A DNA stretch of 57,492 nt, filler included, from Moniliella sp. 'wahieum' (taxonomy: Eukaryota), in assembly GCA_003971905.1 (NCBI GenBank). It is 3 parts of 3 records of this genome, joined end to end, with 100 filler letters (N's around TTAATTAATTAA, not from the genome) between each part and the next. Parts side by side here need not be neighbours in the genome. Positions count along the whole stretch, not along the records: positions 14,350 to 44,957 come from RSEE01000215.1; 2 more parts are not named here. The stretch is one strand, 5' to 3'. This document shows, one piece after another, positions 11,278 through 47,589 of this stretch; positions within the stretch are counted from its first letter, which is position 1; each line of letters begins with the position of its first letter. A program made the position numbers and the translations under genes. A model generated the notes under the pieces. That model saw only the letters and a program-made list of their open reading frames with translations. It searched no databases and was not told where the DNA came from.

Positions 11278-11320
11278 CCACCCAGGCACAGAATGCAGAA
11301 GCATGAACCGCAGCGCATCT

Positions 11321-14249: not shown

Positions 14250-14349
14250 NNNNNNNNNNNNNNNNNNNNNNNNNNNNNNNNNNNNNNNNNNNNTTAATTA
14301 ATTAANNNNNNNNNNNNNNNNNNNNNNNNNNNNNNNNNNNNNNNNNNNN
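14250..14349. other. Artificial contig linker (N44-TTAATTAATTAA-N44)
   Basis: Exactly 100 nt with an all-frame-stop 12-mer at 14294-14305. An identical linker lies at 44958-45057. Confidence 0.98.
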
Positions 14350-17300
14350 TAGAGGCTGCACGAAACAGATCTGGAATAGGTCGAGGTTTGAGCCCTGCAG
14401 GTCGAGTAGAGGGTGATTGTCCGGTCAGACTTTCCACGGATGGTACTCGGTCAGTATTGGTCGGATCGAGATCCGGACCGGTGCTATCGCTTCTCCTGAC
14501 CCAGCTCTACACACCAAGGTACTTCGATTCAGTCCAGGGGTCGGGGTTGAAGGGTGAGTGTTCACTCAACGATGTACGGTGACCGGTGATGCCTGTCACC
14601 CACGTCCCTCCTATGACAGGTACTAGATTCTACAAGGTGATCCTGGATCTGAATAGCCCCAGGTCATCTCCTGACTGGGACTATGCTGTGGGAAGTGGGG
14701 GCTGGAACGGATGAGACCCCAAGTTGGCATGGTCACATCCACCCTGGGTACTATCGGTAGGGCTACGCTAGGGTGCCCACGCGACGCAAGACCAGGCGTC
14801 AGATCGGAGTGAGAGTGGGATCGTTGGAAAGCTACGGCCTGGGGCTATTCAAAAAACAATCACTCCCCCGGTCTGCCAGTCAAAAGTGTCTCAACCCTGA
14901 ATGGGTGGGTGGGGCATGCCCTTGTAAGTATCAGGTCGTACCCCAGGTTCAACTCCACCTCGGTCCGTCAATATTGGTCCGACCGGAATGAAACTACCAG
15001 AGCCTCTAGACCTCGGTCAGGACTAGAGGCCTGCACGAAACAGATCTGGAATAGGTCGAGGTTTGAGCCCTGCAGGTCGAGTAGAGGGTGATGTCACCGG
15101 TCAGACTTTCACGGATGGTACTCGGTCAGTATTGGTCGGATCGAGATCCGACCGGTGCTATCGCTTCTCTCTGACCCAGCCTACACACCAAGGACTTCGA
15201 TTCAGTCCAGGGGTCGGGTTGAAGGGTGATGTTCACTCAACGATGTACGGTGACCGGTGATGCCTGTCACCACGTCCCTCCTATGACAGGTACTAGATTC
15301 TACAAGGTGATCCTGGATCTGAATAGCCCCAGTCATCTCCTGGACTGGACTACTGCTGTGGGAAGTGGGGGCTGGAACGGATGAGACCCCAAGTTGGCAT
15401 GGTCACATCCACCCTGGGTACTATCGGTAGGGCTACGCTAGGGTGCCCACGCGACGCAAGACCAGCTCGTCAGTCGGAGTGAGAGTGGGATCGTTGGAAA
15501 GCTACGGCCTGGGGCTATTCAAAAAAACTCACTCCCCGGTCTGCCAGTCAAAAGTTGTCTCAACCCTGAATGGGTGGGGTGGGCATGCCCTTGTAAGTAT
15601 CAGGTCGTACCCCAGGTTCAACTCCACTCGGTCCGTCAATATTGGTCCGACCGAATGAAACTACCAGAGCCTCTAGACCTCGGTCAGGACTAGAGGCTGC
15701 ACGAAACAGATCTGGAATGGTCGAGGTTTGAGCCCTGCAGGTCGGTAGAGGGTGATGTCACCGGTCAGACTTCCACGGATGGTACTCGGTCAGTATTGGT
15801 CGGATCGAGATCCGGACCGGTGCTATCGCTCTCTGACCCAGCTCTACACACCAAGGTACTTCGATTCAGTCCAGGGGTCGGGGTTGAAGGGTGATGTTCA
15901 CTCAACGATGTACGGTGACCGGTGATGCCTGTCACCCACGTCCCCCTATGACAGTACTAGATTCTACAAGGTGATCCTGGATCTGAATAGCCCCAGGTCA
16001 TCTCCTGGACTGGGACTATGCTGTGGGAAGTGGGGGCTGGAACGGATGAGACCCCAAGTTGCATGGTCAATCCACCTGGGTACTATCGGTAGGGCTACGC
16101 TAGGGTGCCCACGCGACGCAAGACCAGGCGTCAGATCGGAGTGAGAGTGGGATCGTTGGAAAGCTACGGCCTTGGGCTATTCAAAAAAACTCACTCCCCG
16201 GTCTGCCAGTCAAAGTTGTCTCAACCCTGAATGGGGTGGGTGGGCATGCCCTTGTAAGTATCAGGTCGTACCCCAGGTTCAACTCCACCTCGGTCCGTCA
16301 ATATTGGTCCGACCGGAATGAAACTACCAGAGCCTCTAGACCTCGTCAGGACTAGAGGCTGCACGAAACAGATCTGGAATAGGTCGAGGTTTGAGCCCTG
16401 CAGGTCGAGTGAGAGGGTGATGTCACCGGTCAGACTTTCCACGGATGGTACTCGGTCAGATTGGTCGGATCGAGATCCGGACCGGTGCTATCGCTTCTCC
16501 TGACCCAGCTCTACACACCAAGGTACTTCGATTCAGTCCAGGGGTCGGGGTTGAAGGGTGATGTTCACTCAACGATGTACGGTGACCGGTGATGCCTGTC
16601 CCACGTCCCTCCTATGACAGGTACTAGATTCTACAAGTGATCCTGGATCTGAATAGCCCCAGGTCATCTCCTGGACTGGGACTACTGCTGTGGGAAGTGG
16701 GGGCTGGAACGGATGAGACCCCAAGTTGGCATGGTCACATCCACCCGGGTACTATCGGTAGGGCTACGCTAGGGTGCCCACGCGACGCAAGACCAGGGTC
16801 AGATCGGAGTGAGAGTGGGATCGTTGGAAAGCTACGGCCTGGGGCTATTCAAAAAACTCACTCCCCGGTCTGCCAGTCAAAGTTGTCTCAACCCTGAATG
16901 GGGGGGTGGGCATGCCCTTGTAAGTATCAGGTCGTACCCCAGGTTCAACTCCACCTCGGTCGTCAATATTGGTCCGACCGGAATGAAACTACCAGAGCCT
17001 CTAGACCTCGGTCAGGACTGAGGCTGCACGAAACAGATCGGAATAGGTCGAGGTTGAGCCTGCAGGTCGAGTAGAGGGTGATGTCACGGTCAGACTTCCA
17101 CGGATGGTACTCGGTCAGATTGGTCGGATCGAGATCCGGACCGGTGCTATCGCTTCTCCTGACCCAGCTCTACACACCAAGGTACTTCGATTCAGTCCAG
17201 GGGTCGGGGTTGAAGGGTGATGTTCACTCAACGATGTACGGTGACCGGTGATGCCTGTCACCCACGTCCCTCCTATGACAGGTACTAGATTCTACAGGTG

Positions 17301-20300
17301 ATCCTGGATCTGAATAGCCCCAGGTCATCTCCTGGACTGGGACTACTGCTGTGGGAAGTGGGGGCTGGAACGATGAGACCCCAAGTTGGCATGGTCACAT
17401 CCACCCTGGGTACTATCGGTAGGGCTACGCTAGGGTGCCCACGCGACGCAAGACCAGGCGTCAGATCGGGTGAGAGTGGGATCGTTGGAAAGCTACGGCT
17501 GGGGCTATTCAAAAAAACTCACTCCCCGGTCTGCCAGTCAAAAGTTGTCTCAACCCTGAATGGTGGGGTGGCATGCCCTTGTAAGTATCAGGTCGTACCC
17601 CAGGTTCAACTCCACCTCGGTCCGTCAATATTGGTCCGACCGGAATGAAACTACCAGAGCCTCTAGACCTCGGTCAGGACTAGAGGCTGCACGAAACAGA
17701 TCTGGAATAGGTCGAGTTTGAGCCCTGCAGGTCGAGTAGAGGGTGATGTCACCGGTCAGACTTTCCACGGATGGTACTCGGTCAGTATTGGTCGGATCGA
17801 GATCCGGACCGGTGCTATCGCTTCTCCTGACCCAGCTCTACACACCAAGGTACTTCGATTCAGTCCAGGGGTGGGGTTGAAGGGTGATGTTCACTCAACG
17901 ATGTACGGTGACCGGTGATGCCTGTCACCCACGTCCCTCCTATGACAGGTACTAGATTCTACAAGGTGATCTGGATCTGAATAGCCCCAGGTCATCTCCT
18001 GGACTGGGACTACTGCTGTGGGAAGTGGGGGCTGGAACGGATGAGACCCCAAGTTGGCATGGTCACATCCACCCTGGGTACTATCGGTAGGGCTACGCTA
18101 GGGTGCCCACGCGACGCAAGACCAGGCGTCAGATCGGAGTGAGAGTGGGATCGTGGAAAGCTACGGCCTGGGGCTATTCAAAAAAACTCACTCCCCCGGT
18201 CTGCCAGTCAAAGTTGTCTCAACCCTGAATGGGTGGGGTGGGCATGCCCTTGTAAGTATCAGGTCGTACCCCAGGTTCAACTCCACCTCGGTCCGTCAAT
18301 ATTGGTCCGACCGGAATGAAACTACCAGAGCCTCTAGACCTCGGTCAGGACTAGAGGCTGCACGAAACAGATCTGGAATAGGTCGAGGTTTGAGCCCTGC
18401 AGGTCGAGTAGAGGGTGATGTCACCGGTCAGACTTTCCACGGATGGTACTCGGTCAGTATTGGTCGGATCGAGATCCGGACCGGTGCTATCGCTTCTCCT
18501 GACCCAGCTCTACACACCAAGGTACTTCGATTCAGTCCAGGGGTCGGGGTTGAAGGGTGATGTTCACTCAACGATGTACGGTGACCGGTGATGCCTGTCA
18601 CCCACGTCCCTCCTATGACAGGTACTAGATTCTACAAGGTGATCCTGGATCTGAATAGCCCCAGGTCATCTCCTGGACTGGGACTACTGCTGTGGGAAGT
18701 GGGGGGCTGGAACGGATGAGACCCCAAGTTGGCATGGTCACATCCACCCTGGGTACTATCGGTAGGGCTACGCTAGGGTGCCCACGCGACGCAAGACCAG
18801 GCGTCAGATCGGAGTGAGAGTGGGATCGTTGGAAAGCTACGGCCTGGGGCTATTCAAAAAAAACTCACTCCCCCGGTCTGCCAGTCAAAAGTTGTCTCAA
18901 CCCTGAAGGGGGGGTGGGCATGCCTTGTAAGTATCAGGTCGTACCCCAGGTTCAACTCCACCTCGGTCCGTCAATATTGGTCGACGGAATGAAACTACCA
19001 GAGCCTCTAGACCTCGGTCAGGACTAGAGGCTGCACGAAACAGATCTGGAATAGGTCGAGGTTTGAGCCCTGCAGGTCGAGTAGGGTGTGATGTCACGTC
19101 AGACTTTCCACGGATGGTACTCGGTCAGTATTGGTCGGATCGAGATCCGGACCGGTGCTATCGCTTCTCCTGACCCAGCTCTACAACCAAGGTACTTCGA
19201 TTCAGTCCAGGGGTCGGGGTGAAGGGTGTTCACTCAACGATGTACGGTGACCGGTGATGCCTGTCACCCACGTCCCTCCTATGACAGGTACTAGATTCTA
19301 CAAGGTGATCCTGGATCTGAATAGCCCCAGGTCATCTCCTGGACTGGGACTACTGCTGTGGGAAGTGGGGGCTGGAACGGATGAGACCCCAAGTTGGCAT
19401 GGTCACATCCACCCTGGGTACTATCGGTAGGGCTACGCTAGGGTGCCCACGCGACGCAAGACCAGGCGTCAGATCGGAGTGAGAGTGGGATCGTTGGAAA
19501 GCTACGGCCTGGGGCTATTCAAAAAAACTCACTCCCCCGGTCTGCCAGTCAAAAGTTGTCTCAAACCCTGAATGGGGGGTGGGCATGCCCTTGTAAGTAT
19601 CAGGTCGTACCCCAGGTTCAACTCCACTCGGTCCGTCAATATTGGTCCGACCGGAATGAAACTACCAGAGCTCTAGACCTCGGTCAGGACTAGAGGCTGC
19701 ACGAAACAGATCTGGAATAGGTCGAGGTTTGAGCCCTGCAGGTCGAGTAGAGGGTGATGTCACCGGTCAGACTTTCCACGGATGGTACTCGGTCAGTATT
19801 GGTCGGATCGAGATCCGGACCGGTGCTATCGCTTCTCCTGACCCAGCTCTACACACCAAGGTACTTCGATTCAGTCCAGGGTCGGGGTTGAAGGGTGATG
19901 TTCACTCAACGATGTACGGTGACCGGTGATGCCTGTCACCCACGTCCCTCTATGACAGGTACTAGATTCTACAAGGTGATCCTGGATCTGAATAGCCCCA
20001 GGTCATCTCCTGGACTGGGACTACTGCTGTGGGAAGTGGGGCTGGAACGGATGAGACCCCAAGTTGGCATGGTCACATCCACCCTGGGTACTATCGGTAG
20101 GGCTACGCTAGGGTGCCCACGCGACGCAAGACCAGGCGTCAGATCGGAGTGAGAGTGGGATCGTTGGAAAGCTACGGCTGGGGCTATTCAAAAAAACTCA
20201 CTCCCCCGGTCTGCCAGTCAAAAGTTGTCTCAACCCTGAATGGGGGGGTGGGCATGCCCTTGTAAGTATCAGGTCGTACCCAGGTTCAACTCCACCTCGG

Positions 20301-23300
20301 TCGTCAATATTGGTCCGACCGGAATGAAACTACCAGAGCCTCTAGACCTCGGTCAGGACTAGAGGCTGCACGAAACAGATCTGGAATAGGTCGAGGTTTG
20401 AGCCCTGCAGGTCGAGTAGAGGGTGATGTCACCGGTCAGACTTTCCACGGATGGTACTCGGTCAGTATTGGTCGGATCGAGATCCGGACCGGTGCTATCG
20501 CTTCTCCTGACCCAGCTCTACACACCAAGGTACTTCGATTCAGTCCAGGGGTCGGGGTTGAAGGGTGATGTTCACTCAACGATGTACGGTGACCGGTGAT
20601 GCCTGTCACCCACGTCCCTCCTATGACAGGTACTAGATTCTACAAGGTGATCCTGGATCTGAATAGCCCCAGGTCATCTCCTGGACTGGGACTACTGCTG
20701 TGGGAAGTGGGGGCTGGAACGGATGAGACCCCAAGTTGGCATGGTCACATCCACCCTGGGTACTATCGGTAGGGCTACGCTAGGGTGCCCACGCGACGCA
20801 AGACCAGGCGTCAGATCGGAGTGAGAGTGGGATCGTTGGAAAGCTACGGCCTGGGGCTATTCAAAAAAACTCACTCCCCGGTCTGCCAGTCAAAAGTTGT
20901 CTCAACCCTGAATGGGTGGGGTGGGCATGCCCTTGTAAGTATCAGGTCGTACCCAGGTTCAACTCCACCTCGGTCCGTCAATATTGGTCCGACCGGAATG
21001 AAACTACCAGAGCCTCTAGACCTCGGTCAGGACTAGAGGCTGCACGAAACAGATCTGGAATAGGTCGAGGTTTGAGCCCTGCAGGTCGAGTAGAGGGTGA
21101 TGTCACCGGTCAGACTTTCCACGGATGGTACTCGGTCAGATTGGTCGGATCGAGATCCGGACCGGTGCTATCGCTTCTCCTGACCCAGCTCTACACACCA
21201 AGGTACTTCGATTCAGTCCAGGGGTCGGGGTTGAAGGGTGATGTTCACTCAACGATGTACGGTGACGGTGATGCCTGTCACCCACGTCCCTCCTATGACA
21301 GGTACTAGATTCTACAAGGTGATCCTGGATCTGAATAGCCCCAGGTCATCTCCTGGACTGGGACTACTGCTGTGGGAAGTGGGGGGGTGGAACGGATGAG
21401 ACCCCAAGTTGGCATGGTCACATCCACCCTGGTACTATCGGTAGGGCTACGCTAGGGTGCCCACGCGACGCAAGACCAGGCGTCAGATCGGAGTGAGAGT
21501 GGGATCGTTGGAAAGCTACGGCCTGGGGCTATTCAAAAAAACTCACTCCCCGGTCTGCCAGTCAAAAGTTGTCTCAACCCTGAATGGGTGGGGTGGGCAT
21601 GCCCTTGTAAGTATCAGGTCGTACCCAGGTTCAACTCCACCTCGGTCCGTCAATATTGGTCCGACCGGAATGAAACTACCAGAGCCTCTAGACCTCGGTC
21701 AGGACTAGAGGCTGCACGAAACAGATCTGGAATAGGTCGAGGTTTGAGCCCTGCAGGTCGAGTAGAGGGTGATGTCACCGGTCAGACTTTCCACGGATGG
21801 TACTCGGTCAGTATTGGTCGGATCGAGATCCGGACCGGTGCTATCGCTTCTCCTGACCCAGCTCTACACACCAAGGTACTTCGATTCAGTCCAGGGGTCG
21901 GGTTGAAGGGTGATGTTCACTCAACGATGTACGGTGACCGGTGATGCCTGTCACCCACGTCCCTCCTATGACAGGTACTAGATTCTACAAGGTGATCCTG
22001 GATCTGAATAGCCCCGGTCATCTCCTGGACTGGGACTACTGCTGTGGGAAGTGGGGGCTGGAACGGATGAGACCCCAAGTTGGCATGGTCACATCCACCC
22101 TGGGTACTATCGGTAGGGCTACGCTAGGGTGCCCACGCGACGCAAGACCAGGCGTCAGATCGGAGTGAGAGTGGGATCGTTGGAAAGCTACGGCCTGGGG
22201 CTATTCAAAAAAACTCACTCCCCGGTCTGCCAGTCAAAAGTTGTCTCAACCCTGAATGGGTGGGGTGGGCATGCCCTTGTAAGTATCAGGTCGTACCCCA
22301 GGTTCAACTCCACCTCGGTCCGTCAATATTGGTCCGACCGGAATGAAACTACCAGAGCCTCTAGACCTCGGTCAGGACTAGAGGCTGCACGAAACAGATC
22401 TGGAATAGGTCGAGGTTGAGCCCTGCAGGTCGAGTAGAGGGTGATGTCACCGGTCAGACTTTCCACGGATGGTACTCGGTCAGTATTGGTCGGATCGAGA
22501 TCCGGACCGGTGCTATCGCTTCTCCTGACCCAGCTCTACACACCAAGGTACTTCGATTCAGTCCAGGGGTCGGGGTTGAAGGGTGATGTTCACTCAACGA
22601 TGTACGGTGACCGGTGATGCCTGTCACCCACGTCCCTCCTATGACAGGTACTAGATTCTACAAGGTGATCCTGGATCTGAATAGCCCCAGGTCATCTCCT
22701 GGACTGGGACTACTGCTGTGGGAAGTGGGGGCTGGAACGGATGAGACCCAAGTTGGCATGGTCACATCCACCCTGGGTACTATCGGTAGGGCTACGCTAG
22801 GGTGCCCACGCGACGCAAGACAGGCGTCAGATCGGAGTGAGAGTGGGATCGTTGGAAAGCTACGGCCTGGGGCTATTCAAAAAAACTCACTCCCCCGGTC
22901 TGCCAGTCAAAAGTTGTCTCAACCCTGAATGGGTGGGGTGGGCATGCCCTTGTAAGTATCAGGTCGTACCCCAGGTTCAACTCACCTCGGTCCGTCAATA
23001 TTGGTCCGACCGGAATGAAACTACCAGAGCCTCTAGACCTCGGTCAGGACTAGAGGCTGCACGAAACAGATCTGGAATAGGTCGAGGTTTGAGCCCTGCA
23101 GGTCGAGTAGAGGGTGATGTCACCGGTCAGACTTTCCACGGATGGTACTCGGTCAGTATTGGTCGGATCGAGATCCGGACCGGTGCTATCGCTTCTCCTG
23201 ACCCAGCTCTACACACCAAGGTACTTCGATTCAGTCCAGGGTCGGGGTGGGTTGAAGGGTGATGTTCACTCAACGATGTACGGTGACCGGTGATGCCTGT

Positions 23301-26300
23301 CACCCACGTCCCTCCTATGACAGGTACTAGATTCTACAAGGTGATCCTGGATCTGAATAGCCCCAGGTCATCTCCTGGACTGGGACTACTGCTGTGGGAA
23401 GTGGGGGCTGGAACGGATGAGACCCCAAGTTGGCATGGTCACATCCACCCTGGGTACTATCGGTAGGGCTACGCTAGGGTGCCCACGCGACGCAAGACCA
23501 GGCGTCAGATCGGAGTGAGAGTGGGATCGTTGGAAAGCTACGGCCTGGGCTATTCAAAAAAACTCACTCCCCGGTCTGCCAGTCAAAAGTTGTCTCAACC
23601 CTGAATGGGTGGGTGGGCATGCCCTTGTAAGTATCAGGTCGTACCCCAGGTTCAACTCCACCTCGGTCCGTCAATATTGGTCCGACCGGAATGAAACTAC
23701 CAGAGCCTCTAGACCTCGGTCAGGACTAGAGGCTGCACGAAACAGATCTGGAATAGGTCGAGGTTTGAGCCCTGCAGGTCGAGTAGAGGGTGATGTCACC
23801 GGTCAGACTTTCCACGGATGGTACTCGGTCAGTATTGGTCGGATCGAGATCCGGACCGGTGCTATCGCTTCTCCTGACCCAGCTCTACACACCAAGGTAC
23901 TTCGATTCAGTCCAGGGGTCGGGGTTGAAGGGTGATGTTCACTCAACGATGTACGGTGACCGGTGATGCCTGTCACCCACGTCCCTCCTATGACAGGTAC
24001 TAGATTCTACAAGGTGATCCTGGATCTGAATAGCCCCAGGTCATCTCCTGGACTGGGACTACTGCTGTGGGAAGTGGGGGCTGGAACGGATGAGACCCCA
24101 AGTTGGCATGGTCACATCCACCCTGGGTACTATCGGTAGGGCTACGCTAGGGTGCCCACGCGACGCAAGACCAGGCGTCAGATCGGAGTGAGAGTGGGAT
24201 CGTTGGAAAGCTACGGCCTGGGGCTATTCAAAAAAACTCACTCCCCGGTCTGCCAGTCAAAAGTTGTCTCAACCCTGAATGGGTGGGGTGGGCATGCCCT
24301 TGTAAGTATCAGGTCGTACCCCAGGTTCAACTCCACCTCGGTCCGTCAATATTGGTCCGACCGGAATGAAACTACCAGAGCCTCTAGACCTCGGTCAGGA
24401 CTAGAGGCTGCACGAAACAGATCTGGAATAGGTCGAGGTTTGAGCCTGCAGGTCGAGTAGAGGGTGATGTCACCGGTCAGACTTTCCACGGATGGTACTC
24501 GGTCAGTATTGGTCGGATCGAGATCCGGACCGGTGCTATCGCTTCTCCTGACCCAGCTCTACACCAAGGTACTTCGATTCAGTCCAGGGGTCGGGGTTGA
24601 AGGGTGATGTTCACTCAACGATGTACGGTGACCGGGTGATGCCTGTCACCCACGTCCCTCCTATGACAGGTACTAGATTCTACAAGGTGATCCTGGATCT
24701 GAATAGCCCCAGGTCATCTCCTGGACTGGGACTACTGCTGTGGGAAGTGGGGGCTGGAACGGATGAGACCCCAAGTTGGCATGGTCACATCCACCCTGGG
24801 TACTATCGGTAGGGCTACGCTAGGGTGCCCACGCGACGCAAGACCAGGCGTCAGATCGGAGTGAGAGTGGGATCGTTGGAAAGCTACGGCCTGGGGCTAT
24901 TCAAAAAAACTCACTCCCCCGGTCTGCCAGTCAAAAGTTGTCTCAACCTGAATGGGTGGGGTGGGCATGCCCTTGTAAGTATCAGGTCGTACCCCAGGTT
25001 CAACTCCACCTCGGTCCGTCAATATTGGTCCGACCGGAATGAAACTACCAGAGCCTCTAGACCTCGGTCAGGACTAGAGGCTGCACGAAACAGATCTGGA
25101 ATAGGTCGAGGTTTGAGCCCTGCAGGTCGAGTAGAGGGTGATGTCACCGGTCAGACTTTCCACGGATGGTACTCGGTCAGTATTGGTCGGATCGAGATCC
25201 GGACCGGTGCTATCGCTTCTCCTGACCCAGCTCTACACACCAAGGTACTTCGATTCAGTCCAGGGGTCGGGGTTGAAGGGTGATGTTCACTCAACGATGT
25301 ACGGTGACCGGTGATGCCTGTCACCCACGTCCCTCCTATGACAGGTACTAGATTCTACAAGGTGATCCTGGATCTGAATAGCCCCAGGTCATCTCCTGGA
25401 CTGGGACTACTGCTGTGGGAAGTGGGGGCTGGAACGGATGAGACCCCAAGTTGGCATGGTCACATCCACCCTGGGTACTATCGGTAGGGCTACGCTAGGG
25501 TGCCCACGCGACGCAAGACCAGGCGTCAGATCGGAGTGAGAGTGGGATCGTTGGAAAGCTACGGCCTGGGGCTATTCAAAAAAACTCACTCCCCCGGTCT
25601 GCCAGTCAAAAGTTGTCTCAACCCTGAATGGGGGGGTGGGCATGCCCTTGTAAGTATCAGGTCGTACCCCAGGTTCAACTCCACCTCGGTCCGTCAATAT
25701 TGGTCCGACCGGAATGAAACTACCAGAGCCTCTAGACCTCGGTCAGGACTAGAGGCTGCACGAAACAGATCTGGAATAGGTCGAGGTTTGAGCCCTGCAG
25801 GTCGAGTAGAGGGTGATGTCACCGGTCAGACTTTCCACGGATGGTACTCGGTCAGTATTGGTCGGATCGAGATCCGGACCGGTGCTATCGCTTCTCCTGA
25901 CCCAGCTCTACACACCAAGGTACTTCGATTCAGTCCAGGGGTCGGGGTTGAAGGGTGATGTTCACTCAACGATGTACGGTGACCGGTGATGCCTGTCACC
26001 CACGTCCCTCCTATGACAGGTACTAGATTCTACAAGGTGATCCTGGATCTGAATAGCCCCAGGTCATCTCCTGGACTGGGACTACTGCTGTGGGAAGTGG
26101 GGGCTGGAACGGATGAGACCCCAAGTTGGCATGGTCACATCCACCCTGGGTACTATCGGTAGGGCTACGCTAGGGTGCCCACGCGACGCAAGACCAGGCG
26201 TCAGATCGGAGTGAGAGTGGGATCGTTGGAAAGCTACGGCCTGGGGCTATTCAAAAAACTCACTCCCCCGGTCTGCCAGTCAAAAGTTGTCTCAACCCTG

Positions 26301-35300: not shown

Positions 35301-38300
35301 TTGGTCGGATCGAGATCCGGACCGGTGCTATCGCTTCTCCTGACCCAGCTCTACACACCAAGGTACTTCGATTCAGTCCAGGGGTCGGGGTTGAAGGGTG
35401 ATGTTCACTCAACGATGTACGGTGACCGGTGATGCCTGTCACCCACGTCCCTCCTATGACAGGTACTAGATTCTACAAGGTGATCCTGGATCTGAATAGC
35501 CCCAGGTCATCTCCTGGACTGGGACTACTGCTGTGGGAAGTGGGGGCTGGAACGGATGAGACCCCAAGTTGGCATGGTCACATCCCTGGGTACTATCGGT
35601 AGGGCTACGCTAGGGTGCCCACGCGACGCAAGACCAGGCGTCAGATCGGAGTGAGAGTGGGATCGTTGGAAAGCTACGGCCTGGGGCTATTCAAAAAAAC
35701 TCACCCCGGTCTGCCAGTCAAAAGTTGTCTCAACCCTGAATGGGTGGGGTGGGCATGCCCTTGTAAGTATCAGGTCGTACCCCAGGTTCAACTCCACCTC
35801 GGTCCGTCAATATTGGTCCGACCGGAATGAAAACTACCAGAGCCTCTAGACCTCGGTCAGGACTAGAGGCTGCACGAAACAGATCTGGAATAGGTCGAGG
35901 TTTGAGCCCTGCAGGTCGAGTAGAGGGTGATGTCACCGGTCAGACTTTCCACGGATGGTACTCGGTCAGTATTGGTCGGATCGAGATCCGGACCGGTGCT
36001 ATCGCTTCTCCTGACCCAGCTCTACACACCAAGGTACTTCGATTCAGTCCAGGGGTCGGGGTTGAAGGGTGATGTTCACTCAACGATGTACGGTGACCGG
36101 TGATGCCTGTCACCCACGTCCTCCTATGACAGGTACTAGATTCTACAAGGTGATCCTGGATCTGAATAGCCCCAGGTCATCTCCTGGACTGGGACTACTG
36201 CTGTGGGAAGTGGGGGCTGGAACGGATGAGACCCCAAGTTGGCATGGTCACATCCACCCTGGGTACTATCGGTAGGGCTACGCTAGGGTGCCCACGCGAC
36301 GCAAGACCAGGCGTCAGATCGGAGTGAGAGTGGGATCGTTGGAAAGCTACGGCCTGGGGCTATTCAAAAAAACTCACTCCCCCGGTCTGCCAGTCAAAAG
36401 TTGTCTCAACCCTGAATGGGTGGGGTGGGCATGCCCTTGTAAGTATCAGGTCGTACCCCAGGTTCAACTCCACCTCGGTCCGTCAATATTGGTCCGACCG
36501 GAATGAAACTACCAGAGCCTCTAGACCTCGGTCAGGACTAGAGGCTGCACGAAACAGATCTGGAATAGGTCGAGGTTTGAGCCCTGCAGGTCGAGTAGAG
36601 GGTGATGTCACCGGTCAGACTTTCCACGGATGGTACTCGGTCAGTATTGGTCGGATCGAGATCCGGACCGGTGCTATCGCTTCTCCTGACCCAGCTCTAC
36701 ACACCAAGGTACTTCGATTCAGTCCAGGGGTCGGGGTTGAAGGGTGATGTTCACTCAACGATGTACGGTGACCGGTGATGCCTGTCACCCACGTCCCTCC
36801 TATGACAGGTACTAGATTCTACAAGGTGATCCTGGATCTGAATAGCCCCAGGTCATCTCCTGGACTGGGACTACTGCTGTGGGAAGTGGGGGCTGGAACG
36901 GATGAGACCCCAAGTTGGCATGGTCACATCCACCCTGGGTACTATCGGTAGGGCTACGCTAGGGTGCCCACGCGACGCAAGACCAGGCGTCAGATCGGAG
37001 TGAGAGTGGGATCGTTGGAAAGCTACGGCCTGGGGCTATTCAAAAAAACTCACTCCCCCGGTCTGCCAGTCAAAAGTTGTCTCAACCCTGAATGGGTGGG
37101 GTGGGCATGCCCTTGTAAGTATCAGGTCGTACCCCAGGTTCAACTCCACCTCGGTCCGTCAATATTGGTCCGACCGGAATGAAACTACCAGAGCCTCTAG
37201 ACCTCGGTCAGGACTAGAGGCTGCACGAAACAGATCTGGAATAGGTCGAGGTTTGAGCCCTGCAGGTCGAGTAGAGGGTGATGTCACCGGTCAGACTTTC
37301 CACGGATGGTACTCGGTCAGTATTGGTCGGATCGAGATCCGGACCGGTGCTATCGCTTCTCCTGACCCAGCTCTACACACCAAGGTACTTCGATTCAGTC
37401 CAGGGGTCGGGGTTGAAGGGTGATGTTCACTCAACGATGTACGGTGACCGGTGATGCCTGTCACCCACGTCCCTCCTATGACAGGTACTAGATTCTACAA
37501 GGTGATCCTGGATCTGAATAGCCCCAGGTCATCTCCTGGACTGGGACTACTGCTGTGGGAAGTGGGGGGCTGGAACGGATGAGACCCCAAGTTGGCATGG
37601 TCACATCCACCCTGGGTACTATCGGTAGGGCTACGCTAGGGTGCCCACGCGACGCAAGACCAGGCGTCAGATCGGAGTGAGAGTGGGATCGTTGGAAAGC
37701 TACGGCCTGGGGCTATTCAAAAAAAACTCACTCCCCCGGTCTGCCAGTCAAAAGTTGTCTCAACCCTGAATGGGTGGGGTGGGCATGCCCTTGTAAGTAT
37801 CAGGTCGTACCCCAGGTTCAACTCCACCTCGGTCCGTCAATATTGGTCCGACCGGAATGAAAACTACCAGAGCCTCTAGACCTCGGTCAGGACTAGAGGC
37901 TGCACGAAACAGATCTGGAATAGGTCGAGGTTTGAGCCCTGCAGGTCGAGTAGAGGGTGATGTCACCGGTCAGACTTTCCACGGATGGTACTCGGTCAGT
38001 ATTGGTCGGATCGAGATCCGGACCGGTGCTATCGCTTCTCCTGACCCAGCTCTACACACCAAGGTACTTCGATTCAGTCCAGGGGTCGGGGTTGAAGGGT
38101 GATGTTCACTCAACGATGTACGGTGACCGGTGATGCCTGTCACCCACGTCCCTCCTATGACAGGTACTAGATTCTACAAGGTGATCCTGGATCTGAATAG
38201 CCCCAGGTCATCTCCTGGACTGGGACTACTGCTGTGGGAAGTGGGGGCTGGAACGGATGAGACCCCAAGTTGGCATGGTCACATCCACCTGGGTACTATC

Positions 38301-41300
38301 GGTAGGGCTACGCTAGGGTGCCCACGCGACGCAAGACCAGGCGTCAGATCGGAGTGAGAGTGGGATCGTTGGAAAGCTACGGCCTGGGGCTATTCAAAAA
38401 AACTCACTCCCCGGTCTGCCAGTCAAAAGTTGTCTCAACCCTGAATGGGTGGGGTGGGCATGCCTTGTAAGTATCAGGTCGTACCCCAGGTTCAACTCCA
38501 CCTCGGTCCGTCAATATTGGTCCGACCGGAATGAAACTACCAGAGCCTCTAGACCTCGGTCAGGACTAGAGGCTGCACGAAACAGATCTGGAATAGGTCG
38601 AGGTTTGAGCCCTGCAGGTCGAGTAGAGGGTGATGTCACCGGTCAGACTTTCCACGGATGGTACTCGGTCAGTATTGGTCGGATCGAGATCCGGACCGGT
38701 GCTATCGCTTCTCCTGACCCAGCTCTACACACCAAGGTACTTCGATTCAGTCCAGGGGTCGGGGTTGAAGGGTGATGTTCACTCAACGATGTACGGTGAC
38801 CGGTGATGCCTGTCACCCACGTCCCTCCTATGACAGGTACTAGATTCTACAAGGTGATCCTGGATCTGAATAGCCCCAGGTCATCCTGGACTGGGACTAC
38901 TGCTGTGGGAAGTGGGGGCTGGAACGGATGAGACCCCAAGTTGGCATGGTCACATCCACCCTGGGTACTATCGGTAGGGCTACGCTAGGGTGCCCACGCG
39001 ACGCAAGACCAGGCGTCAGATCGGAGTGAGAGTGGGATCGTTGGAAAGCTACGGCCTGGGGCTATTCAAAAAAACTCACTCCCCCGGTCTGCCAGTCAAA
39101 AGTTGTCTCAACCCTGAATGGGTGGGGTGGGCATGCCCTTGTAAGTATCAGGTCGTACCCCAGGTTCAACTCCACCTCGGTCCGTCAATATTGGTCCGAC
39201 CGGAATGAAACTACCAGAGCCTCTAGACCTCGGTCAGGACTAGAGGCTGCACGAAACAGATCTGGAATAGGTCGAGGTTTGAGCCCTGCAGGTCGAGTAG
39301 AGGGTGATGTCACCGGTCAGACTTTCCACGGATGGTACTCGGTCAGTATTGGTCGGATCGAGATCCGGACCGGTGCTATCGCTTCTCCTGACCCAGCTCT
39401 ACACACCAAGGTACTTCGATTCAGTCCAGGGGTCGGGGTTGAAGGGTGATGTTCACTCAACGATGTACGGTGACCGGTGATGCCTGTCACCCACGTCCCT
39501 CCTATGACAGGTACTAGATTCTACAAGGTGATCCTGGATCTGAATAGCCCCAGGTCATCTCCTGGACTGGGACTACTGCTGTGGGAAGTGGGGGCTGGAA
39601 CGGATGAGACCCCAAGTTGGCATGGTCACATCCACCCTGGGTACTATCGGTAGGGCTACGCTAGGGTGCCCACGCGACGCAAGACCAGGCGTCAGATCGG
39701 AGTGAGAGTGGGATCGTTGGAAAGCTACGGCCTGGGGCTATTCAAAAAAACTCACTCCCCCGGTCTGCCAGTCAAAAGTTGTCTCAACCCTGAATGGGTG
39801 GGGTGGGCATGCCCTTGTAAGTATCAGGTCGTACCCCAGGTTCAACTCCACCTCGGTCCGTCAATATTGGTCCGACCGGAATGAAACTACCAGAGCCTCT
39901 AGACCTCGGTCAGGACTAGAGGCTGCACGAAACAGATCTGGAATAGGTCGAGAGGTTTGAGCCCTGCAGGTCGAGTAGAGGGTGATGTCACCGGTCAGAC
40001 TTTCCACGGATGGTACTCGGTCAGTATTGGTCGGATCGAGATCCGGACCGGTGCTATCGCTTCTCCTGACCCAGCTCTACACACCAAGGTACTTCGATTC
40101 AGTCCAGGGGTCGGGGTTGAAGGGTGATGTTCACTCAACGATGTACGGTGACCGGTGATGCCTGTCACCCACGTCCCTCCTATGACAGGTACTAGATTCT
40201 ACAAGGTGATCCTGGATCTGAATAGCCCCAGGTCATCTCCTGGACTGGGACTACTGCTGTGGGAAGTGGGGGCTGGAACGGATGAGACCCCAAGTTGGCA
40301 TGGTCACATCCACCCTGGGTACTATCGGTAGGGCTACGCTAGGGTGCCCACGCGACGCAAGACCAGGCGTCAGATCGGAGTGAGAGTGGGATCGTTGGAA
40401 AGCTACGGCCTGGGGCTATTCAAAAAAACTCACTCCCCCGGTCTGCCAGTCAAAAGTTGTCTCAACCCTGAATGGGTGGGGTGGGCATGCCTTGTAAGTA
40501 TCAGGTCGTACCCCAGGTTCAACTCCACCTCGGTCCGTCAATATTGGTCCGACCGGAATGAAACTACCAGAGCCTCTAGACCTCGGTCAGGACTAGAGGC
40601 TGCACGAAACAGATCTGGAATAGGTCGAGGTTTGAGCCCTGCAGGTCGAGTAGAGGGTGATGTCACCGGTCAGACTTTCCACGGATGGTACTCGGTCAGT
40701 ATTGGTCGGATCGAGATCCGGACCGGTGCTATCGCTTCTCCTGACCCAGCTCTACACACCAAGGTACTTCGATTCAGTCCAGGGGTCGGGGTTGAAGGGT
40801 GATGTTCACTCACGATGTACACGGTGTGGTGAGGTGATGCCTGTCACCCACGTCCCTCCTATGACAGGTACTAGATTCTACAAGGTGATCCTGGATCTGA
40901 ATAGCCCCAGGTCATCTCCTGGATGGGACTACTGCTGTGGGAAGTGGGGGCTGGAACGGATGAGACCCCAAGTTGGCATGGTCACATCCACCCTGGGTAC
41001 TATCGGTAGGGCTACGCTAGGGTGCCCACGCGACGCAAGACCAGGCGTCAGATCGGAGTGAGAGTGGGATCGTGGAAAGCTACGGCCTGGGGCTATTCAA
41101 AAAAAACTCACTCCCCCGGTCTGCCAGTCAAAAGTTGTCTCAACCCTGAATGGGTGGGGGGCATGCCCTTGTAAGTATCAGGTCGTACCCCAGGTTCAAC
41201 TCCACCTCGGTCCGTCAATATTGGTCCGACCGGAATGAAACTACCAGAGCCTCTAGACCTCGGTCAGGACTAGAGGCTGCACGAAACAGATCTGGAATAG

Positions 41301-44300
41301 GTCGAGGTTTGAGCCCTGCAGGTCGAGTAGAGGGTGATGTCACCGGTCAGACTTTCCACGGATGGTACTCGGTCAGTATTGGTCGGATCGAGATCCGGAC
41401 CGGTGCTATCGCTTCTCCTGACCCAGCTCTACACACCAAGGTACTTCGATTCAGTCCAGGGGTCGGGGTTGAAGGGTGATGTTCACTCAACGATGTACGG
41501 TGACCGGTGATGCCTGTCACCACGTCCCTCCTATGACAGGTACTAGATTCTACAAGGTGATCCTGGATCTGAATAGCCCCAGGTCATCTCCTGGACTGGG
41601 ACTACTGCTGTGGGAAGTGGGGGCTGGAACGGATGAGACCCAAGTTGGCATGGTCACATCCACCCTGGGTACTATCGGTAGGGCTACGTAGGGTGCCCAC
41701 GCGACGCAAGACCAGGCGTCAGATCGGAGTGAGAGTGGGATCGTTGGAAAGCTACGGCCTGGGGCTATTCAAAAAAACTCACTCCCCCGGTCTGCCAGTC
41801 AAAAGTTGTCTCAACCTGAATGGGTGGGGTGGGCATGCCCTTGTAAGTATCAGGTCGTACCCCAGGTTCAACTCCACCTCGGTCCGTCAATATTGGTCCG
41901 ACCGGAATGAAACTACCAGAGCCTCTAGACCTCGGTCAGGACTAGAGGCTGCACGAAACAGATCTGGAATAGGTCGAGGTTTGAGCCCTGCAGGTCGAGT
42001 AGAGGGTGATGTCACCGGTCAGACTTTCCACGGATGGTACTCGGTCAGTATTGGTCGGATCGAGATCCGGACCGGTGCTATCGCTTCTCCCCAGCTCTAC
42101 ACACCAAGGTACTTCGATTCAGTCCAGGGGTCGGGGTTGAAGGGTGATGTTCACTCAACGATGTACGGTGACCGGTGATGCCTGTCACCCACGTCCCTCC
42201 TATGACAGGTACTAGATTCTACAAGGTGATCCTGGATCTGAATAGCCCCAGGTCACTCCTGGACTGGGACTACTGCTGTGGGAAGGGGGGCTGGAACGGA
42301 TGAGACCCAAGTTGGCATGGTCACATCCACCTGGGTACTATCGGTAGGGCTACGCTAGGGGTGCCCACGCGACGCAAGACCAGGCGTCAGATCGGAGTGA
42401 GAGTGGGATCGTTGGAAAGCTACGGCCTGGGGCTATTCAAAAAAACTCACTCCCCCGGTCTGCCAGTCAAAAGTTGTCTCAACCCTGAATGGGTGGGGTG
42501 GGCATGCCCTTGTAAGTATCAGGTCGTACCCCAGGTTCAACTCCACCTCGGTCCGTCAATATTGGTCCGACCGGAATGAAACTACCAGAGCCTCTAGACC
42601 TCGGTCAGGACTAGAGGCTGCACGAAACAGATCTGGAATAGGTCGAGGTTTGAGCCCTGCAGGTCGAGTAGAGGGTGATGTCACCGGTCAGACTTTCCAC
42701 GGATGGTACTCGGTCAGTATTGGTCGGATCGAGATCCGGACCGGTGCTATCGCTTCTCCTGACCCAGCTCTACACACCAAGGTACTTCGATTCAGTCCAG
42801 GGGTCGGGGTTGAAGGGTGATGTTCACTCAACGATGTACGGTGACCGGTGATGCCTGTCACCCACGTCCTCCTATGACAGGTACTAGATTCTACAAGGTG
42901 ATCCTGGATCTGAATAGCCCCAGGTCATCTCCTGGACTGGGACTACTGCTGTGGGAAGTGGGGGCTGGAACGGATGAGACCCCAAGTTGGCATGGTCACA
43001 TCCACCCTGGGTACTATCGGTAGGGCTACGCTAGGGTGCCCACGCGAGCGCAAGACCAGGCGTCAGATCGGAGTGAGAGTGGGATCGTTGGAAAGCTACG
43101 GCCTGGGGCTATTCAAAAAAACTCACTCCCCGGTCTGCCAGTCAAAAGTTGTCTCAACCCTGAATGGGTGGGGTGGGCATGCCCTTGTAAGTATCAGGTC
43201 GTACCCCAGGTTCAACTCCACCTCGGTCCGTCAATATTGGTCCGACCGGAATGAAACTACCAGAGCCTCTAGACCTCGGTCAGGACTAGAGGCTGCACGA
43301 AACAGATCTGGAATAGGAATAGGTCGAGGTTTGAGCCCTGCAGGTCGAGTAGAGGGTGATGTCACCGGTCAGACTTTCCACGGATGGTACTCGGTCAGTA
43401 TTGGTCGGATCGAGATCCGGACCGGTGCTATCGCTTCTCCTGACCCAGCTCTACACACCAAGGTACTTCGATTCAGTCCAGGGGTCGGGGTTGAAGGGTG
43501 ATGTTCACTCAACGATGTACGGTGACCGGTGATGCCTGTCACCCACGTCCCTCCTATGACAGGTACTAGATTCTACAAGGTGATCCTGGATCTGAATAGC
43601 CCCAGGTCATCTCCTGGACTGGGACTACTGCTGTGGGAAGTGGGGGCTGGAACGGATGAGACCCCAAGTTGGCATGGTCACATCCACCCTGGGTACTATC
43701 GGTAGGGCTACGCTAGGGTGCCCACGCGACGCAAGACCAGGCGTCAGATCGGAGTGAGAGTGGGATCGTTGGAAAGCTACGGCCTGGGGCTATTCAAAAA
43801 AAACTCACTCCCCCGGTCTGCCAGTCAAAAGTGTCTCAACCTGAATGGGTGGGGTGGGCATGCCCTTGTAAGTATCAGGTCGTACCCCAGGTTCAACTCC
43901 ACCTCGGTCCGTCAATATTGGTCCGACCGGAATGAAACTACCAGAGCCTCTAGACCTCGGTCAGGACTAGAGGCTGCACGAAACAGATCTGGAATAGGTC
44001 GAGGTTTGAGCCCTGCAGGTCGAGTAGAGGGTGATGTCACGGTCAGACTTTCCACGGATGGTACTCGGTCAGTATTGGTCGGATCGAGATCCGGACCGGT
44101 GCTATCGCTTCTCCTGACCCAGCTTACACACCAAGGTACTTCGATTCAGTCCAGGGGTCGGGGTTGAAGGGTGATGTTCACTCAACGATGTACGGTGACC
44201 GGTGATGCCTGTCACCCACGTCCCTCCTATGACAGGTACTAGATTCTACAAGGTGATCCTGGATCTGAATAGCCCCAGGTCATCTCTGGACTGGGACTAC

Positions 44301-44957
44301 TGCTGTGGGAAGTGGGGGCTGGAACGGATGAGACCCCAAGTTGGCATGGTCACACACCTGGGTACTATCGGTAGGGCTACGCTAGGGTGCCCACGCGACG
44401 CAAGACCAGGCGTCAGATCGGAGTGAGAGTGGGATCGTTGGAAAGCTACGGCCTGGGGCTATTCAAAAAAAACTCACTCCCCGGTCTGCCAGTCAAAAGT
44501 TGTCTCAACCCTGAATGGGTGGGGTGGGCATGCCCTTGTAAGTATCAGGTCGTACCCAGGTTCAACTCCACCTCGGTCCGTCAATATTGGTCCGACCGGA
44601 ATGAAACTACCAGAGCCTCTAGACCTCGGTCAGGACTAGAGGCTGCACGAAACAGATCTGGAATAGGTCGAGGTTTGAGCCCTGCAGGTCGAGTAGAGGG
44701 TGATGTCACGGTCAGACTTTCCACGGATGGTACTCGGTCAGTATTGGTCGGATCGAGATCCGGACCGGTGCTATCGCTTCTCTGACCAGCTCTACACACC
44801 AAGGTACTTCGATTCAGTCCAGGGGTCGGGGTTGAAGGGTGATGTTCATAAACGATGTACGGTGACCGGTGATGCCTGTCACCACGTCCCTCCTATGACA
44901 GGTACTAGATTCTACAAGGTGATCCTGGATCTGAATAGCCCAGGTCATCTCCTGGAC
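14350..44957. repeat. Whole-contig head-to-tail tandem array of ~45.5 copies of a 676-bp unit (clean reference copies 36539-37214 and 39241-39916)
   Basis: The marker at unit position 426 (gtgcccacgcga) recurs 45 times at ~665-680-bp spacing from 14773 to 44387. A partial final copy follows, and there is no unique sequence anywhere in the contig. Confidence 0.99.
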
Positions 44958-45057
44958 NNNNNNNNNNNNNNNNNNNNNNNNNNNNNNNNNNNNNNNNNNN
45001 NTTAATTAATTAANNNNNNNNNNNNNNNNNNNNNNNNNNNNNNNNNNNNNNNNNNNN
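44958..45057. other. Artificial contig linker (N44-TTAATTAATTAA-N44)
   Basis: Same structure as 14250-14349, with the 12-mer at 45002-45013. Confidence 0.98.
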
Positions 45058-45083
45058 TAACCCTAACCCTAACCCTAACCCTA
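45058..45083. repeat. Telomeric repeat (TAACCC)4 at the contig start, consistent with a left chromosome end
   Basis: taaccctaaccctaaccctaacccta starts the contig with the C-rich strand 5', as expected for a TTAGGG telomere. Only four units are retained. Confidence 0.8.
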
Positions 45084-45935
45084 GAATTAGGGGGTAGAGA
45101 GTAGCGGAGAGGAGGGAGTGGAAGAGATGGAAGATTAAGAGCTACGACGCCCGAGGCTTCTAGACGGAACGCTTCTGCCCGAGCCCAACTGGCTGTGCTA
45201 GCTGCTGGAGCGAAGTGGATGGGTGCGCCAGAATCCGGCTATGCCATTGGCACCCTCCTTTACTAGTGTCCCAACAAGCTACAGCCATCCTTGGCCTCTC
45301 CTCTCGTCCATGCCCAACCGTTCACCTCCCCACCGTGTCATCACTCCATCCAGAGGTACCCTTTTCCGCCCTCTCTATACTTCGTGCGAATACCGCTTGG
45401 ACGTATACTAAGCAATCGTTGAGGAACTGCTGTGTGCATCCCGAACCGTTCACCCTATAAAGCATACATAGACATTCACATTCACTAACTGTCATCGCTC
45501 CGCATTGGCTGCTACCCTTTCTCAACAGTTCCTCCCGCGCTAGTCCTATGCAGCCTTCACTACACTTCCAATTATTGTGCCCCAGCCACAGTATCAAAAA
45601 TGTAACAGCAGCTATACGCCGCTTTCCTGAGGAACCGACGGAAGGGGGAAAGGTCCGGGAGTAAGAACAGTATATATATTGGGGGGACAGCCGATCTCAG
45701 AGGAAAAGTGGTGTGGCTAGCGTGGCGAGTTCTCATCAGAATCATTACAGTTGTACATCCTCAGGTTCCTGCAAGAGAGACCCAGGAGGTGTGAGAAGAG
45801 ACAGGGGTGGTGAGACAGCAAAATGGTCGGACGAACCAAGCAGAGTACGAGCCAGAGGTGATATCTGAAAAGGGATATACTGTGGTGCATAGAATAGTAG
45901 TACTTCACACTATCTCTCCCCTAGCACACGATGCG

Positions 45936-47396: not shown

Positions 47397-47589
47397 TTTT
47401 CCATTCTCTCTATAATAGATGCTTAGCTTAACCTTGTGCATTTGCGCTAGGGGTATACCTGCGAAATTCGTTTCTGATTGAATCCTAAAAATCCACACCA
47501 CTCTCTATTCCCACGTTATAGGGGCCGCGACAAATGGTTCCTATTCCAAGTGTTCCAAGTGGGTTTTTTCGTTCGATCAAATGCATTTT

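What the first reader, a model, noticed from the sequence alone, without database searches (positions are those of the whole stretch)
14350..44957. A 30.6-kb contig made only of near-identical 676-bp units: candidate small circular or multimeric element rather than an ordinary satellite
Seen: about 45.5 head-to-tail copies with no unique flank. Copy differences are overwhelmingly 1-3-nt indels, often in homopolymers and denser at both contig ends. I saw almost no substitutions and no subfamily or higher-order pattern. The unit is complex sequence (hand count G200 C177 A151 T148) and lacks the GCGC tetramer that is abundant in the host genes. Known: chromosomal satellites normally accumulate substitutions, whereas small circles and rolling-circle or reverse-transcribed multimers assemble as perfect tandem contigs. 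Examples are the Neurospora mitochondrial VS satellite plasmid and tandem retrozyme repeats. Inference: the true copies are essentially identical, pointing to a 676-bp extrachromosomal replicon, its concatemers, or a very recently amplified array in a fungus. A library spike-in or amplification product remains possible.
Basis: partly seen in the sequence, partly recalled or inferred. Interest (0 to 1): 0.85.

Follow-up and report, generated by a model that had tools for sequence, protein, structure and literature searches.

The report
Homogeneous 676-bp satellite contig in fungus
One whole assembly contig of a basidiomycete fungus consists of about 45 almost identical head-to-tail copies of a 676-base non-coding unit, most likely an unplaced piece of a chromosomal satellite array, which is uncommon in fungi, and not a free mini-plasmid.

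Summary
Window 14350-44957 is a separate 30,608-bp contig of 45 full copies plus a 318-bp tail of a 676-bp unit. The differences between copies look like long-read consensus errors.

The unit is non-coding. It has no Rfam family, no tRNA, no internal subrepeat and no viroid-like fold. It matches nothing in the plasmid, phage, viral, prokaryote-genome or metagenome-contig collections.

Two features stand out. Each unit carries a 31-nt dyad hairpin. Its composition is unlike the flanking fungal contigs: GpC o/e is 0.48, CpG o/e is 0.65, and GCGC is absent against 8-11 per kb in the flanks.

One 151-bp contig in a wastewater metagenome is 100% identical to part of the unit.

The scan found a 676-bp satellite before, on another contig of this genome, where it abuts an LTR-like repeat (e1-7649786). 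I could not fetch that contig, so this is an untested lead.

My best reading is an unanchored stretch of a very homogeneous chromosomal satellite. Consensus collapse exaggerates the identity between copies. An extrachromosomal concatemer or foreign DNA is not excluded, because no reads were available. The VS-plasmid and retrozyme analogies failed their tests.

The parts
14250..14349 (.). Contig separator (N44-TTAATTAATTAA-N44). It is not biological sequence.
14350..44957 (+). Whole contig made of a 676-bp tandem unit: 45 full copies plus a 318-bp tail. GC is 0.556-0.559 and GC skew +0.058 to +0.074 in every 2-kb window from 16001 to 44000.
36120..37568 (+). Longest stretch identical to the periodic consensus (1,449 bp, 2.14 units).
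36542..37217 (+). One error-free unit in the phase of my consensus (it starts AGGCTGCACG).
36516..36546 (.). Dyad in each unit: AGCCTCTAGACCT-CGGTC-AGGACTAGAGGCT. 12 of 13 arm positions are complementary. As single-stranded DNA it folds at -11 kcal/mol.
   Evidence: I3; 1 of 300 shuffles reaches 12/13; z -3.94; 1 of 200 shuffles folds as well
36584..36589 (.). PstI site CTGCAG, once per unit. BglII, SphI and XbaI also cut once per unit.
36444..36594 (+). Part of the unit found 100% identical, with no gaps, in one 151-bp Logan contig (depth 2) of wastewater metagenome run X1.
44958..45057 (.). Contig separator. It is not biological sequence.

Best explanation
The contig is an unanchored interior stretch of a chromosomal satellite array of the fungus. 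The array is made of a 676-bp non-coding monomer.

**Why it stands alone (inferred).** Long reads lying wholly inside the array share no unique sequence, so the assembler emitted them as a separate repeat-only contig.

**How the array stays uniform (inferred from established knowledge of satellites).** Unequal sister-chromatid exchange and gene conversion keep the copies alike. Excision of circular multimers, rolling-circle copying and reinsertion may add to this, as proposed for tandem repeats in general. The residual indels are consensus errors. Part of the apparent perfection comes from averaging misregistered reads.

**Origin (inferred).** The unit's odd composition and the reported LTR junction suggest it arose from transposon-related or otherwise atypical DNA, not from ordinary host intergenic sequence. 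The 31-nt dyad in each unit is the most likely site for protein binding or for cruciform or recombination activity.

**Shown:** the array, its homogeneity, its non-coding nature, the dyad and the composition.
**Inferred:** chromosomal location, the homogenising mechanism and the origin.
For: - **Array and error profile.** 45 units of 662-681 bp give a 676-nt consensus. Differences are indel-dominated, enriched in homopolymers, concentrated at the contig ends and show no transition bias.
- **Non-coding.** The longest frame is 139 codons stop to stop. It has no Pfam match at E<=0.1 and no homologue in the 5.8-billion-protein search. No Rfam family appears at E<=1 and no tRNA lies in the array.
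- **Not a control or vector in the collections searched.** There is no blastn match in plasmids or phages.
- **Exists outside this assembly.** One 151-bp contig in a wastewater metagenome is 100% identical to part of the unit.
- **Flanking contigs are fungal.** They carry mitochondrial carrier, Sec7 and lipoate ligase domains. The best named relatives are Tilletia, Malassezia, Meira and Acaromyces. Contig 3 starts with a TAACCC telomere.
- **Lead, not tested by me.** Note e1-7649786 reports at least 26 copies of a 676-bp non-coding unit on another contig of this genome, starting at an LTR-like repeat.
- **Precedents.** Long-read contigs of the basidiomycete Microbotryum break at putative centromere-specific tandem repeats (PMC5962589, passages). 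Satellites can arise from LTR-retrotransposon tandem repeats (PMC7004042, abstract).
Against: - I saw no junction of this unit with unique DNA. The anchoring rests on an unchecked AI note about a contig I could not read.
- The unit's composition is unlike the host DNA in the window. GpC is 25 against 52.5±5.3 expected and CpG 34 against 52.4±5.3; 0 of 5000 shuffles are as low. GpC o/e is 0.48, while the lowest of 76 host windows is 0.75, and all 26 one-kb host windows lie at 0.78-1.26. GCGC is 0.03 per kb against 8-11 per kb. This would fit foreign DNA as well.
- The unit has no similarity to the two flanking contigs; the best blastn E-value is 0.63.
- A survey of 49 fungi, 32 of them basidiomycetes, saw no satellite centromere architectures and suggests fungi may not maintain satellite arrays (bioRxiv 10.64898/2026.09.17.752431, passages). 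The prior for a long fungal satellite is therefore low.
- No read data were available to test depth, junctions or true variation between copies.
Confidence: 0.62

Rival explanations
1. The contig represents long head-to-tail multimers (circular or rolling-circle linear) of a 676-bp non-coding DNA. They are maintained outside the chromosomes, either as an autonomous host-replicated element or as abundant eccDNA spun off a chromosomal array.
For: - The contig has no unique flank, and the copies are indistinguishable once errors are set aside.
- Each unit carries a significant 31-nt dyad that could act as a nick or origin hairpin.
- The composition is foreign to the host flanks.
- Tandem repeats in general shed circular multimers with rolling-circle intermediates (PMC3225859, abstract).
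Against: - There is no Rep or any other ORF.
- There is no ribozyme or known RNA family, and the fold is not viroid-like.
- The hairpin loop is only 5 nt, and the two AATATT/AGTATT motifs do not sit in hairpin loops (read by eye).
- No similar element appears in the viral collection with 4 patterns, nor in the plasmid or phage records.
- A repeat-only contig is what any unresolvable chromosomal array gives (inference).
Confidence: 0.12
2. The array is not the fungus's own DNA. It could be the abundant satellite of another eukaryote that contaminated the library or flow cell, or a laboratory product such as a rolling-circle amplification concatemer or spike-in.
For: - The dinucleotide signature is an outlier against the fungal flanks: GpC o/e 0.48, CpG o/e 0.65, no GCGC.
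- The unit has no similarity to the other contigs of the window.
- The only other public holder found is a wastewater metagenome, an unrelated sample type, with one 151-bp contig at depth 2.
- Highly abundant satellites are the first thing to assemble from trace contamination (inference).
Against: - There is no match to plasmid or phage records, which is where lambda or phiX controls should lie; I did not check that they are held there.
- There is no match to prokaryote genomes with 2 patterns, nor to metagenome contigs with 2 patterns, whose single hit was a chance 22-mer.
- I could not search eukaryote nucleotide databases, UniVec or synthetic-control sets, so this rival stays open.
Confidence: 0.15
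3. The unit is a retroelement-derived module, for example an LTR plus a short internal region of a small non-autonomous LTR element. It would have been amplified in tandem by LTR-LTR unequal exchange. This is a specific origin within the chromosomal-satellite reading.
For:
- The unit holds two related 19-nt motifs, GTCAATATTGGTCCGACCG and GTCAGTATTGGTCGGATCG, of the form ...CA-N4-TGG... that recalls an LTR end plus primer-binding site.
- LTR-derived satellites are documented in plants (PMC7004042, abstract).
Against: - There is no purine run of 8 or more on the + strand and only two of 8 nt on the - strand.
- The only tRNA in the window does not match the putative primer sites (by eye).
- There is no gag/pol remnant.
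- Eight CA-N0-5-TGG sites occur on the + strand, so the pattern is common by chance.
- No LTR pair lies in the flanking contigs for comparison.
Confidence: 0.15

Closest known systems
Satellite DNA arrays, including those derived from LTR-retrotransposon tandem repeats (Lathyrus sativus; Vondrak et al. 2019, PMC7004042; abstract read)
   Same: It is a long head-to-tail array of a non-coding monomer that assemblers cannot place.
   Different: The host is a fungus. The monomer is complex, with no subrepeats. Divergence between assembled copies is essentially zero. I did not see any LTR link.
Putative centromere-specific tandem repeats of Microbotryum anther-smut fungi (PMC5962589; passages read)
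   Same: The host is a basidiomycete. Long-read contigs break at tandem repeats, leaving repeats at contig ends.
   Different: The sequences were not compared because none was available to me. A centromeric location is untested here. The unit is 55.8% GC, only slightly below the 58-64% of most host windows.
Extrachromosomal circular multimers of chromosomal tandem repeats (Cohen et al. 2010, PMC3225859; abstract read)
   Same: Exact multiples of a tandem unit and rolling-circle intermediates offer a route to homogenisation.
   Different: Those are by-products of chromosomal arrays shown on 2D gels. Nothing here shows circles.
Neurospora VS satellite plasmid and plant/animal retrozymes
   Same: They have a small non-coding unit found as head-to-tail multimers.
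   Different: No VS, hammerhead or other self-cleaving ribozyme appears at E<=1. The fold is not strong. At 55.8% GC the unit is unlike fungal mitochondrial DNA (recalled).

Membership tests
Satellite DNA | Long head-to-tail array of one monomer | tested here: met
   45 units plus a tail over 30,608 bp
Satellite DNA | Monomer is non-coding and carries no gene or known RNA | tested here: met
Satellite DNA | Array embedded in a chromosome (junction with unique DNA) | not testable with these tools
   No genome or reads are held. There is only the untested note e1-7649786.
Extrachromosomal circular replicon or eccDNA multimers | Circular topology and excess depth over single-copy genes | not testable with these tools
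   No raw reads of the source were listed. A tandem contig fits either topology.
Extrachromosomal circular replicon or eccDNA multimers | Own replication protein, or a rolling-circle origin (hairpin with conserved loop motif) | tested here: inconclusive
   There is no ORF or Rep. A significant dyad is present, but its loop is 5 nt and has no nonanucleotide-type motif (by eye).
VS plasmid, retrozyme or viroid-like multimers | Self-cleaving ribozyme in the unit | tested here: not met
   Rfam 15 gives no match at E<=1 on 2.1 kb, both strands.
VS plasmid, retrozyme or viroid-like multimers | Unusually stable (rod-like or branched) circular RNA fold | tested here: not met
   z is -1.64 (+ strand) and -0.18 (- strand) against 60 shuffles each.
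LTR-retrotransposon-derived satellite | Monomer shares sequence with, or abuts, an LTR element | not testable with these tools
No LTR element lies in the window and there is no similarity to the flanks.
Sequencing control or cloning vector | Match to plasmid, phage, lambda or phiX records | tested here: not met
   blastn 'distant' gave no match in 72,556 plasmid and 50,697 phage records. UniVec and synthetic spike-in sets were not available.

The most novel reading that the evidence does not exclude
The 676-bp unit is a selfish, non-coding DNA that lives in a fungus partly as extrachromosomal rolling-circle multimers initiated at its 31-nt dyad. It reinserts into chromosomes, for example next to an LTR. 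This would explain both the perfect homogeneity and the foreign composition. It would be a plasmid-like satellite with no gene of its own.
Probability: 0.06. Interest if true: 0.85.

Novelty: new member of a known kind. Interest (0 to 1): 0.4.

Why it matters
Long homogeneous satellites are rarely reported in fungi. A 2026 survey of 49 fungal genomes saw no satellite centromere architectures and suggested fungi may be unable to make or keep such arrays (bioRxiv 10.64898/2026.09.17.752431, passages).

An array of at least 30 kb made of a complex 676-bp monomer in a smut-related basidiomycete would therefore be a useful counter-example. It would also be a handle on how such arrays arise and stay uniform: from a transposon edge, by circles, or by unequal exchange.

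There is a practical point too. Repeat-only contigs of this kind should be checked against reads before they are called plasmids or contaminants.

Tried and rejected

- Tandem Repeats Finder cannot see the array because its longest period is 500.
- The whole genome is not held, so I could not search for other copies, junctions or helper genes.

**Searches for the unit elsewhere**
- The sequencing-run search gave only wastewater run X1, with a word share of 0.14, and two same-study runs with none. No RNA holder was listed. X2 and X3 laid nothing. This says nothing about expression or absence.
- Metagenome contigs: a 26-mer gave no hit. A 20-mer gave one hit, L001, which is a chance 22-mer in a 42% GC contig with no further similarity.
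- Four patterns in viral contigs and two in prokaryote genomes gave no hit.
- A full-text search for six 19-20-nt strings of the unit found 0 papers. A search for '676 bp' with 'tandem repeat' and 'satellite' found 7 papers, none on a fungal satellite judging by title or abstract start.
- Earlier findings looked up by sequence and by relatives gave nothing.

**Structure within the unit**
- Internal subrepeats: the best self-match scores 24.0 bits, against a shuffle maximum of 26.8 in 40 shuffles. The autocorrelation peak at offset 179 is only about 3.3 sd among 338 offsets. I rejected this idea.
- A tRNA-like or SINE origin, suggested by a GGTTCAACTCC stretch: ARAGORN finds no tRNA in the array.
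- A geminivirus-type or deltasatellite origin: the CAATATTGG and CAGTATTGG motifs are not in hairpin loops (by eye).

**Host mutational scars**
- Exact 7-bp duplications occur at 1.05 and 0.48 per kb in the flanking contigs and not at all in the unit. With under one expected in 676 bp, this is uninformative.

**Error rate in unique regions**
- I tried to gauge it from adjacent ORFs in different frames at 55118/55129. Frameshift and intron could not be told apart.
Full report
**What is there**

The window is three assembly contigs joined by artificial N44-TTAATTAATTAA-N44 spacers at 14250-14349 and 44958-45057. The finding is the whole middle contig, 14350-44957, of 30,608 bp. Tandem Repeats Finder lists nothing inside it only because its longest period is 500. 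Base composition is flat across the contig: GC 0.556-0.559 and GC skew +0.058 to +0.074 in every 2-kb window from 16001 to 44000.

A 19-nt anchor with up to 3 errors occurs 46 times. It cuts the contig into 45 units of 662-681 bp plus a 318-bp tail, or 45.3 unit lengths. Aligning the 45 units gives a 676-nt consensus of G200 C177 A151 T148.

**Nature of the copy differences**

Against the consensus there are 185 deleted, 52 inserted and 68 substituted cells.
- 71 of the 185 deleted bases lie in homopolymer runs of 3 or more, which make up 17% of positions. One C5 run is shortened in 15 copies.
- 56 of the 68 substitutions are in the nine first and six last copies. The 30 central copies have 12 substitutions and differ from the consensus at 5.6 positions per kb.
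- Substitutions show no transition bias (30 transitions, 38 transversions), and 19 of 68 lie within three columns of an indel.
- Only five columns carry the same substitution in two or more copies.
- 83.6% of all 31-mers equal the consensus, and 1,449 bp (36120-37568) are error-free.

This is the profile of long-read consensus error with coverage thinning at the contig ends. There are no subfamilies and no higher-order repeat.

**What the identity does and does not show**

The assembly alone cannot show that. Reads lying wholly inside such an array have no unique anchor. They are laid in arbitrary register, and the per-column consensus drifts to the family majority. Private variants at the level of a percent or so would be erased. 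This is my inference from how long-read assemblers work; no reads were available to test it. What the data do exclude is strong divergence or a structured higher-order pattern.

**What the unit is not**

- It does not code. The longest stop-to-stop frame is 139 codons and contains no Met. Five frames gave no Pfam match at E<=0.1. The 139-aa frame has no relative among 5.8 billion proteins; 31 candidates were scored and none reached E<=0.001.
- No Rfam family reaches E<=1 on three units, both strands. So it holds no 5S, snRNA, VS, hammerhead, twister or HDV-like element.
- ARAGORN finds no tRNA in the array.
- Folded as a circular RNA it is no more stable than shuffles, with z -1.64 and -0.18.
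- It has no internal subrepeat beyond chance: best self-match 24.0 bits against a shuffle maximum of 26.8.
- It has no similarity to the two flanking contigs; the best E-value is 0.63.

**What the unit has**

1. *A dyad.* Each unit carries AGCCTCTAGACCT-CGGTC-AGGACTAGAGGCT (36516-36546 in a perfect copy). Only 1 of 300 shuffles reaches 12 of 13 complementary positions. As single-stranded DNA it folds at -11 kcal/mol, z -3.94.
2. *Strand-biased short words.* GGTC occurs 13 times against 3.4 expected, while its complement GACC occurs 7 times. GGTACT and GGTGAT occur four times each and never on the other strand.
3. *A composition foreign to the neighbouring fungal DNA.* GpC is 25 against 52.5±5.3 expected and CpG 34 against 52.4±5.3; 0 of 5000 shuffles are as low. 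GpC o/e is 0.48, while the lowest of 76 host windows is 0.75, and all 26 one-kb host windows lie at 0.78-1.26. GCGC is 0.03 per kb against 11.4 and 8.1 per kb in the flanks.

**Host**

The flanking contigs carry eukaryotic genes: a mitochondrial carrier, and Sec7, MBOAT and lipoate-ligase domains. The best named relatives of the carrier are Tilletia, Malassezia, Meira and Acaromyces at 38-47% identity. Agaricomycete proteins follow at similar scores. The host is therefore a basidiomycete, probably a divergent member of the Ustilaginomycotina. Contig 3 begins with a TAACCC telomere and holds no satellite.

**Elsewhere**

- There is no blastn match in 72,556 plasmid or 50,697 phage records.
- There is no exact match to four patterns in viral contigs or to two in 185,579 prokaryote genomes.
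- Two patterns in metagenome contigs gave only a chance 22-mer.
- No paper holds six test strings of the unit.
- The index of public runs lists one holder, wastewater metagenome X1. Laying it shows a single 151-bp contig of depth 2, identical at all 151 positions to 36444-36594. So the sequence exists outside this assembly. One read-sized piece cannot tell whether the fungus, another carrier or carry-over is its source.

Finding e1-7649786 reports that another contig of the same genome ends in at least 26 nearly identical copies of a 676-bp non-coding unit that start at the edge of an LTR-like repeat. If that is the same unit, as length and genome suggest, the satellite is anchored in ordinary chromosomal DNA. 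The present contig would then be the part of an array that could not be joined. I could not read that contig, because no genome is held. The by-sequence look-ups returned nothing. It is therefore a lead, not evidence I tested.

**Interpretation**

My best reading, at about 0.62, is an unplaced stretch of a very homogeneous chromosomal satellite.

*Mechanism (inferred).* Unequal sister-chromatid exchange and gene conversion would keep the copies alike. Tandem repeats are also generally prone to shed circular multimers that show rolling-circle intermediates (PMC3225859, abstract), and this could contribute to homogenisation. The dyad is the obvious candidate site for protein binding, cruciform formation or breakage. 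The odd composition and the reported LTR junction point to an origin from transposon-related DNA. Such an origin is known for plant satellites (PMC7004042, abstract).

*Rivals.*
- Free concatemers or an autonomous non-coding element, about 0.12. Nothing tests topology, but there is no Rep, ribozyme or known origin motif. Monomer circles alone could not give a 30-kb tandem contig.
- Foreign or laboratory DNA, about 0.15. The composition and the wastewater hit favour it, while the reported junction argues against it. Eukaryote nucleotide databases, UniVec and spike-in sets could not be searched.
- A tandem small-LTR-element module, about 0.15, as a specific origin within the main reading. The two CA-N4-TGG motifs are suggestive, but such sites are frequent and no polypurine tract accompanies them.

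**Comparison with what is known**

The array works like, and meets the testable criteria of, satellite DNA. Chromosomal embedding remains untested here. The VS-plasmid and retrozyme analogy fails its defining test, since no ribozyme is present.

In basidiomycetes, Microbotryum has putative centromere-specific tandem repeats at which long-read contigs break (PMC5962589, passages). In contrast, a 2026 survey of 49 fungi, 32 of them basidiomycetes, found no satellite centromere architectures and suggested fungi may not generate or maintain satellite arrays (bioRxiv 10.64898/2026.09.17.752431, passages). A homogeneous array of at least 30 kb in a smut-related fungus is thus uncommon. It is still a new member of a known kind, not a new kind.

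**Verdict**

The exotic interpretation is not supported but not excluded. Interest is moderate at 0.4, because the object is real and unusual for a fungus. Against that, the scan has already met what is very probably the same satellite, and the decisive data (reads, junctions, gels) are out of reach here.

Noticed in passing
window 45058-45083 and 45058-52000: Contig 3 starts with (TAACCC)x4.3, so it is a chromosome end. The first ~7 kb behind it have lower GC (0.50-0.57) and lower CpG o/e (0.63-0.95) than the gene-dense DNA further in. No copy of the 676-bp unit lies there.
   Followed up: partly
window 1-14249 and 45058-57492: Exact 7-bp tandem duplications occur at 1.05 and 0.48 per kb in the two flanking contigs, for example CATGTGA x3 at 52755-52775 and TTCAACG x2.9 at 3922-3941. 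This fits the many earlier notes on heptamer arrays in this genome. The satellite unit has none.
   Followed up: partly
window 604-833: A 114-bp unit is repeated twice at 97% identity near the start of contig 1.
   Followed up: no
window 49728-49753: There is a run of 26 C in the subtelomeric contig. It could be a real homopolymer or a long-read artefact.
   Followed up: no
window 50760-50832: This is the only tRNA gene in the window, called tRNA-Gly (anticodon ACC) by ARAGORN.
   Followed up: no
window 11318-11420 and 10220-10328: TCTGCC x17.5 and ACC-rich 6/12/24-bp repeats lie in contig 1. The second overlaps ORFs, so it may encode a low-complexity protein stretch.
   Followed up: no
window 54066-56208: Two long + strand ORFs (54066-55118, with a Sec7 domain, and 55129-56208) follow each other in different frames. 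This is either a short intron or an uncorrected indel in a unique region.
   Followed up: partly
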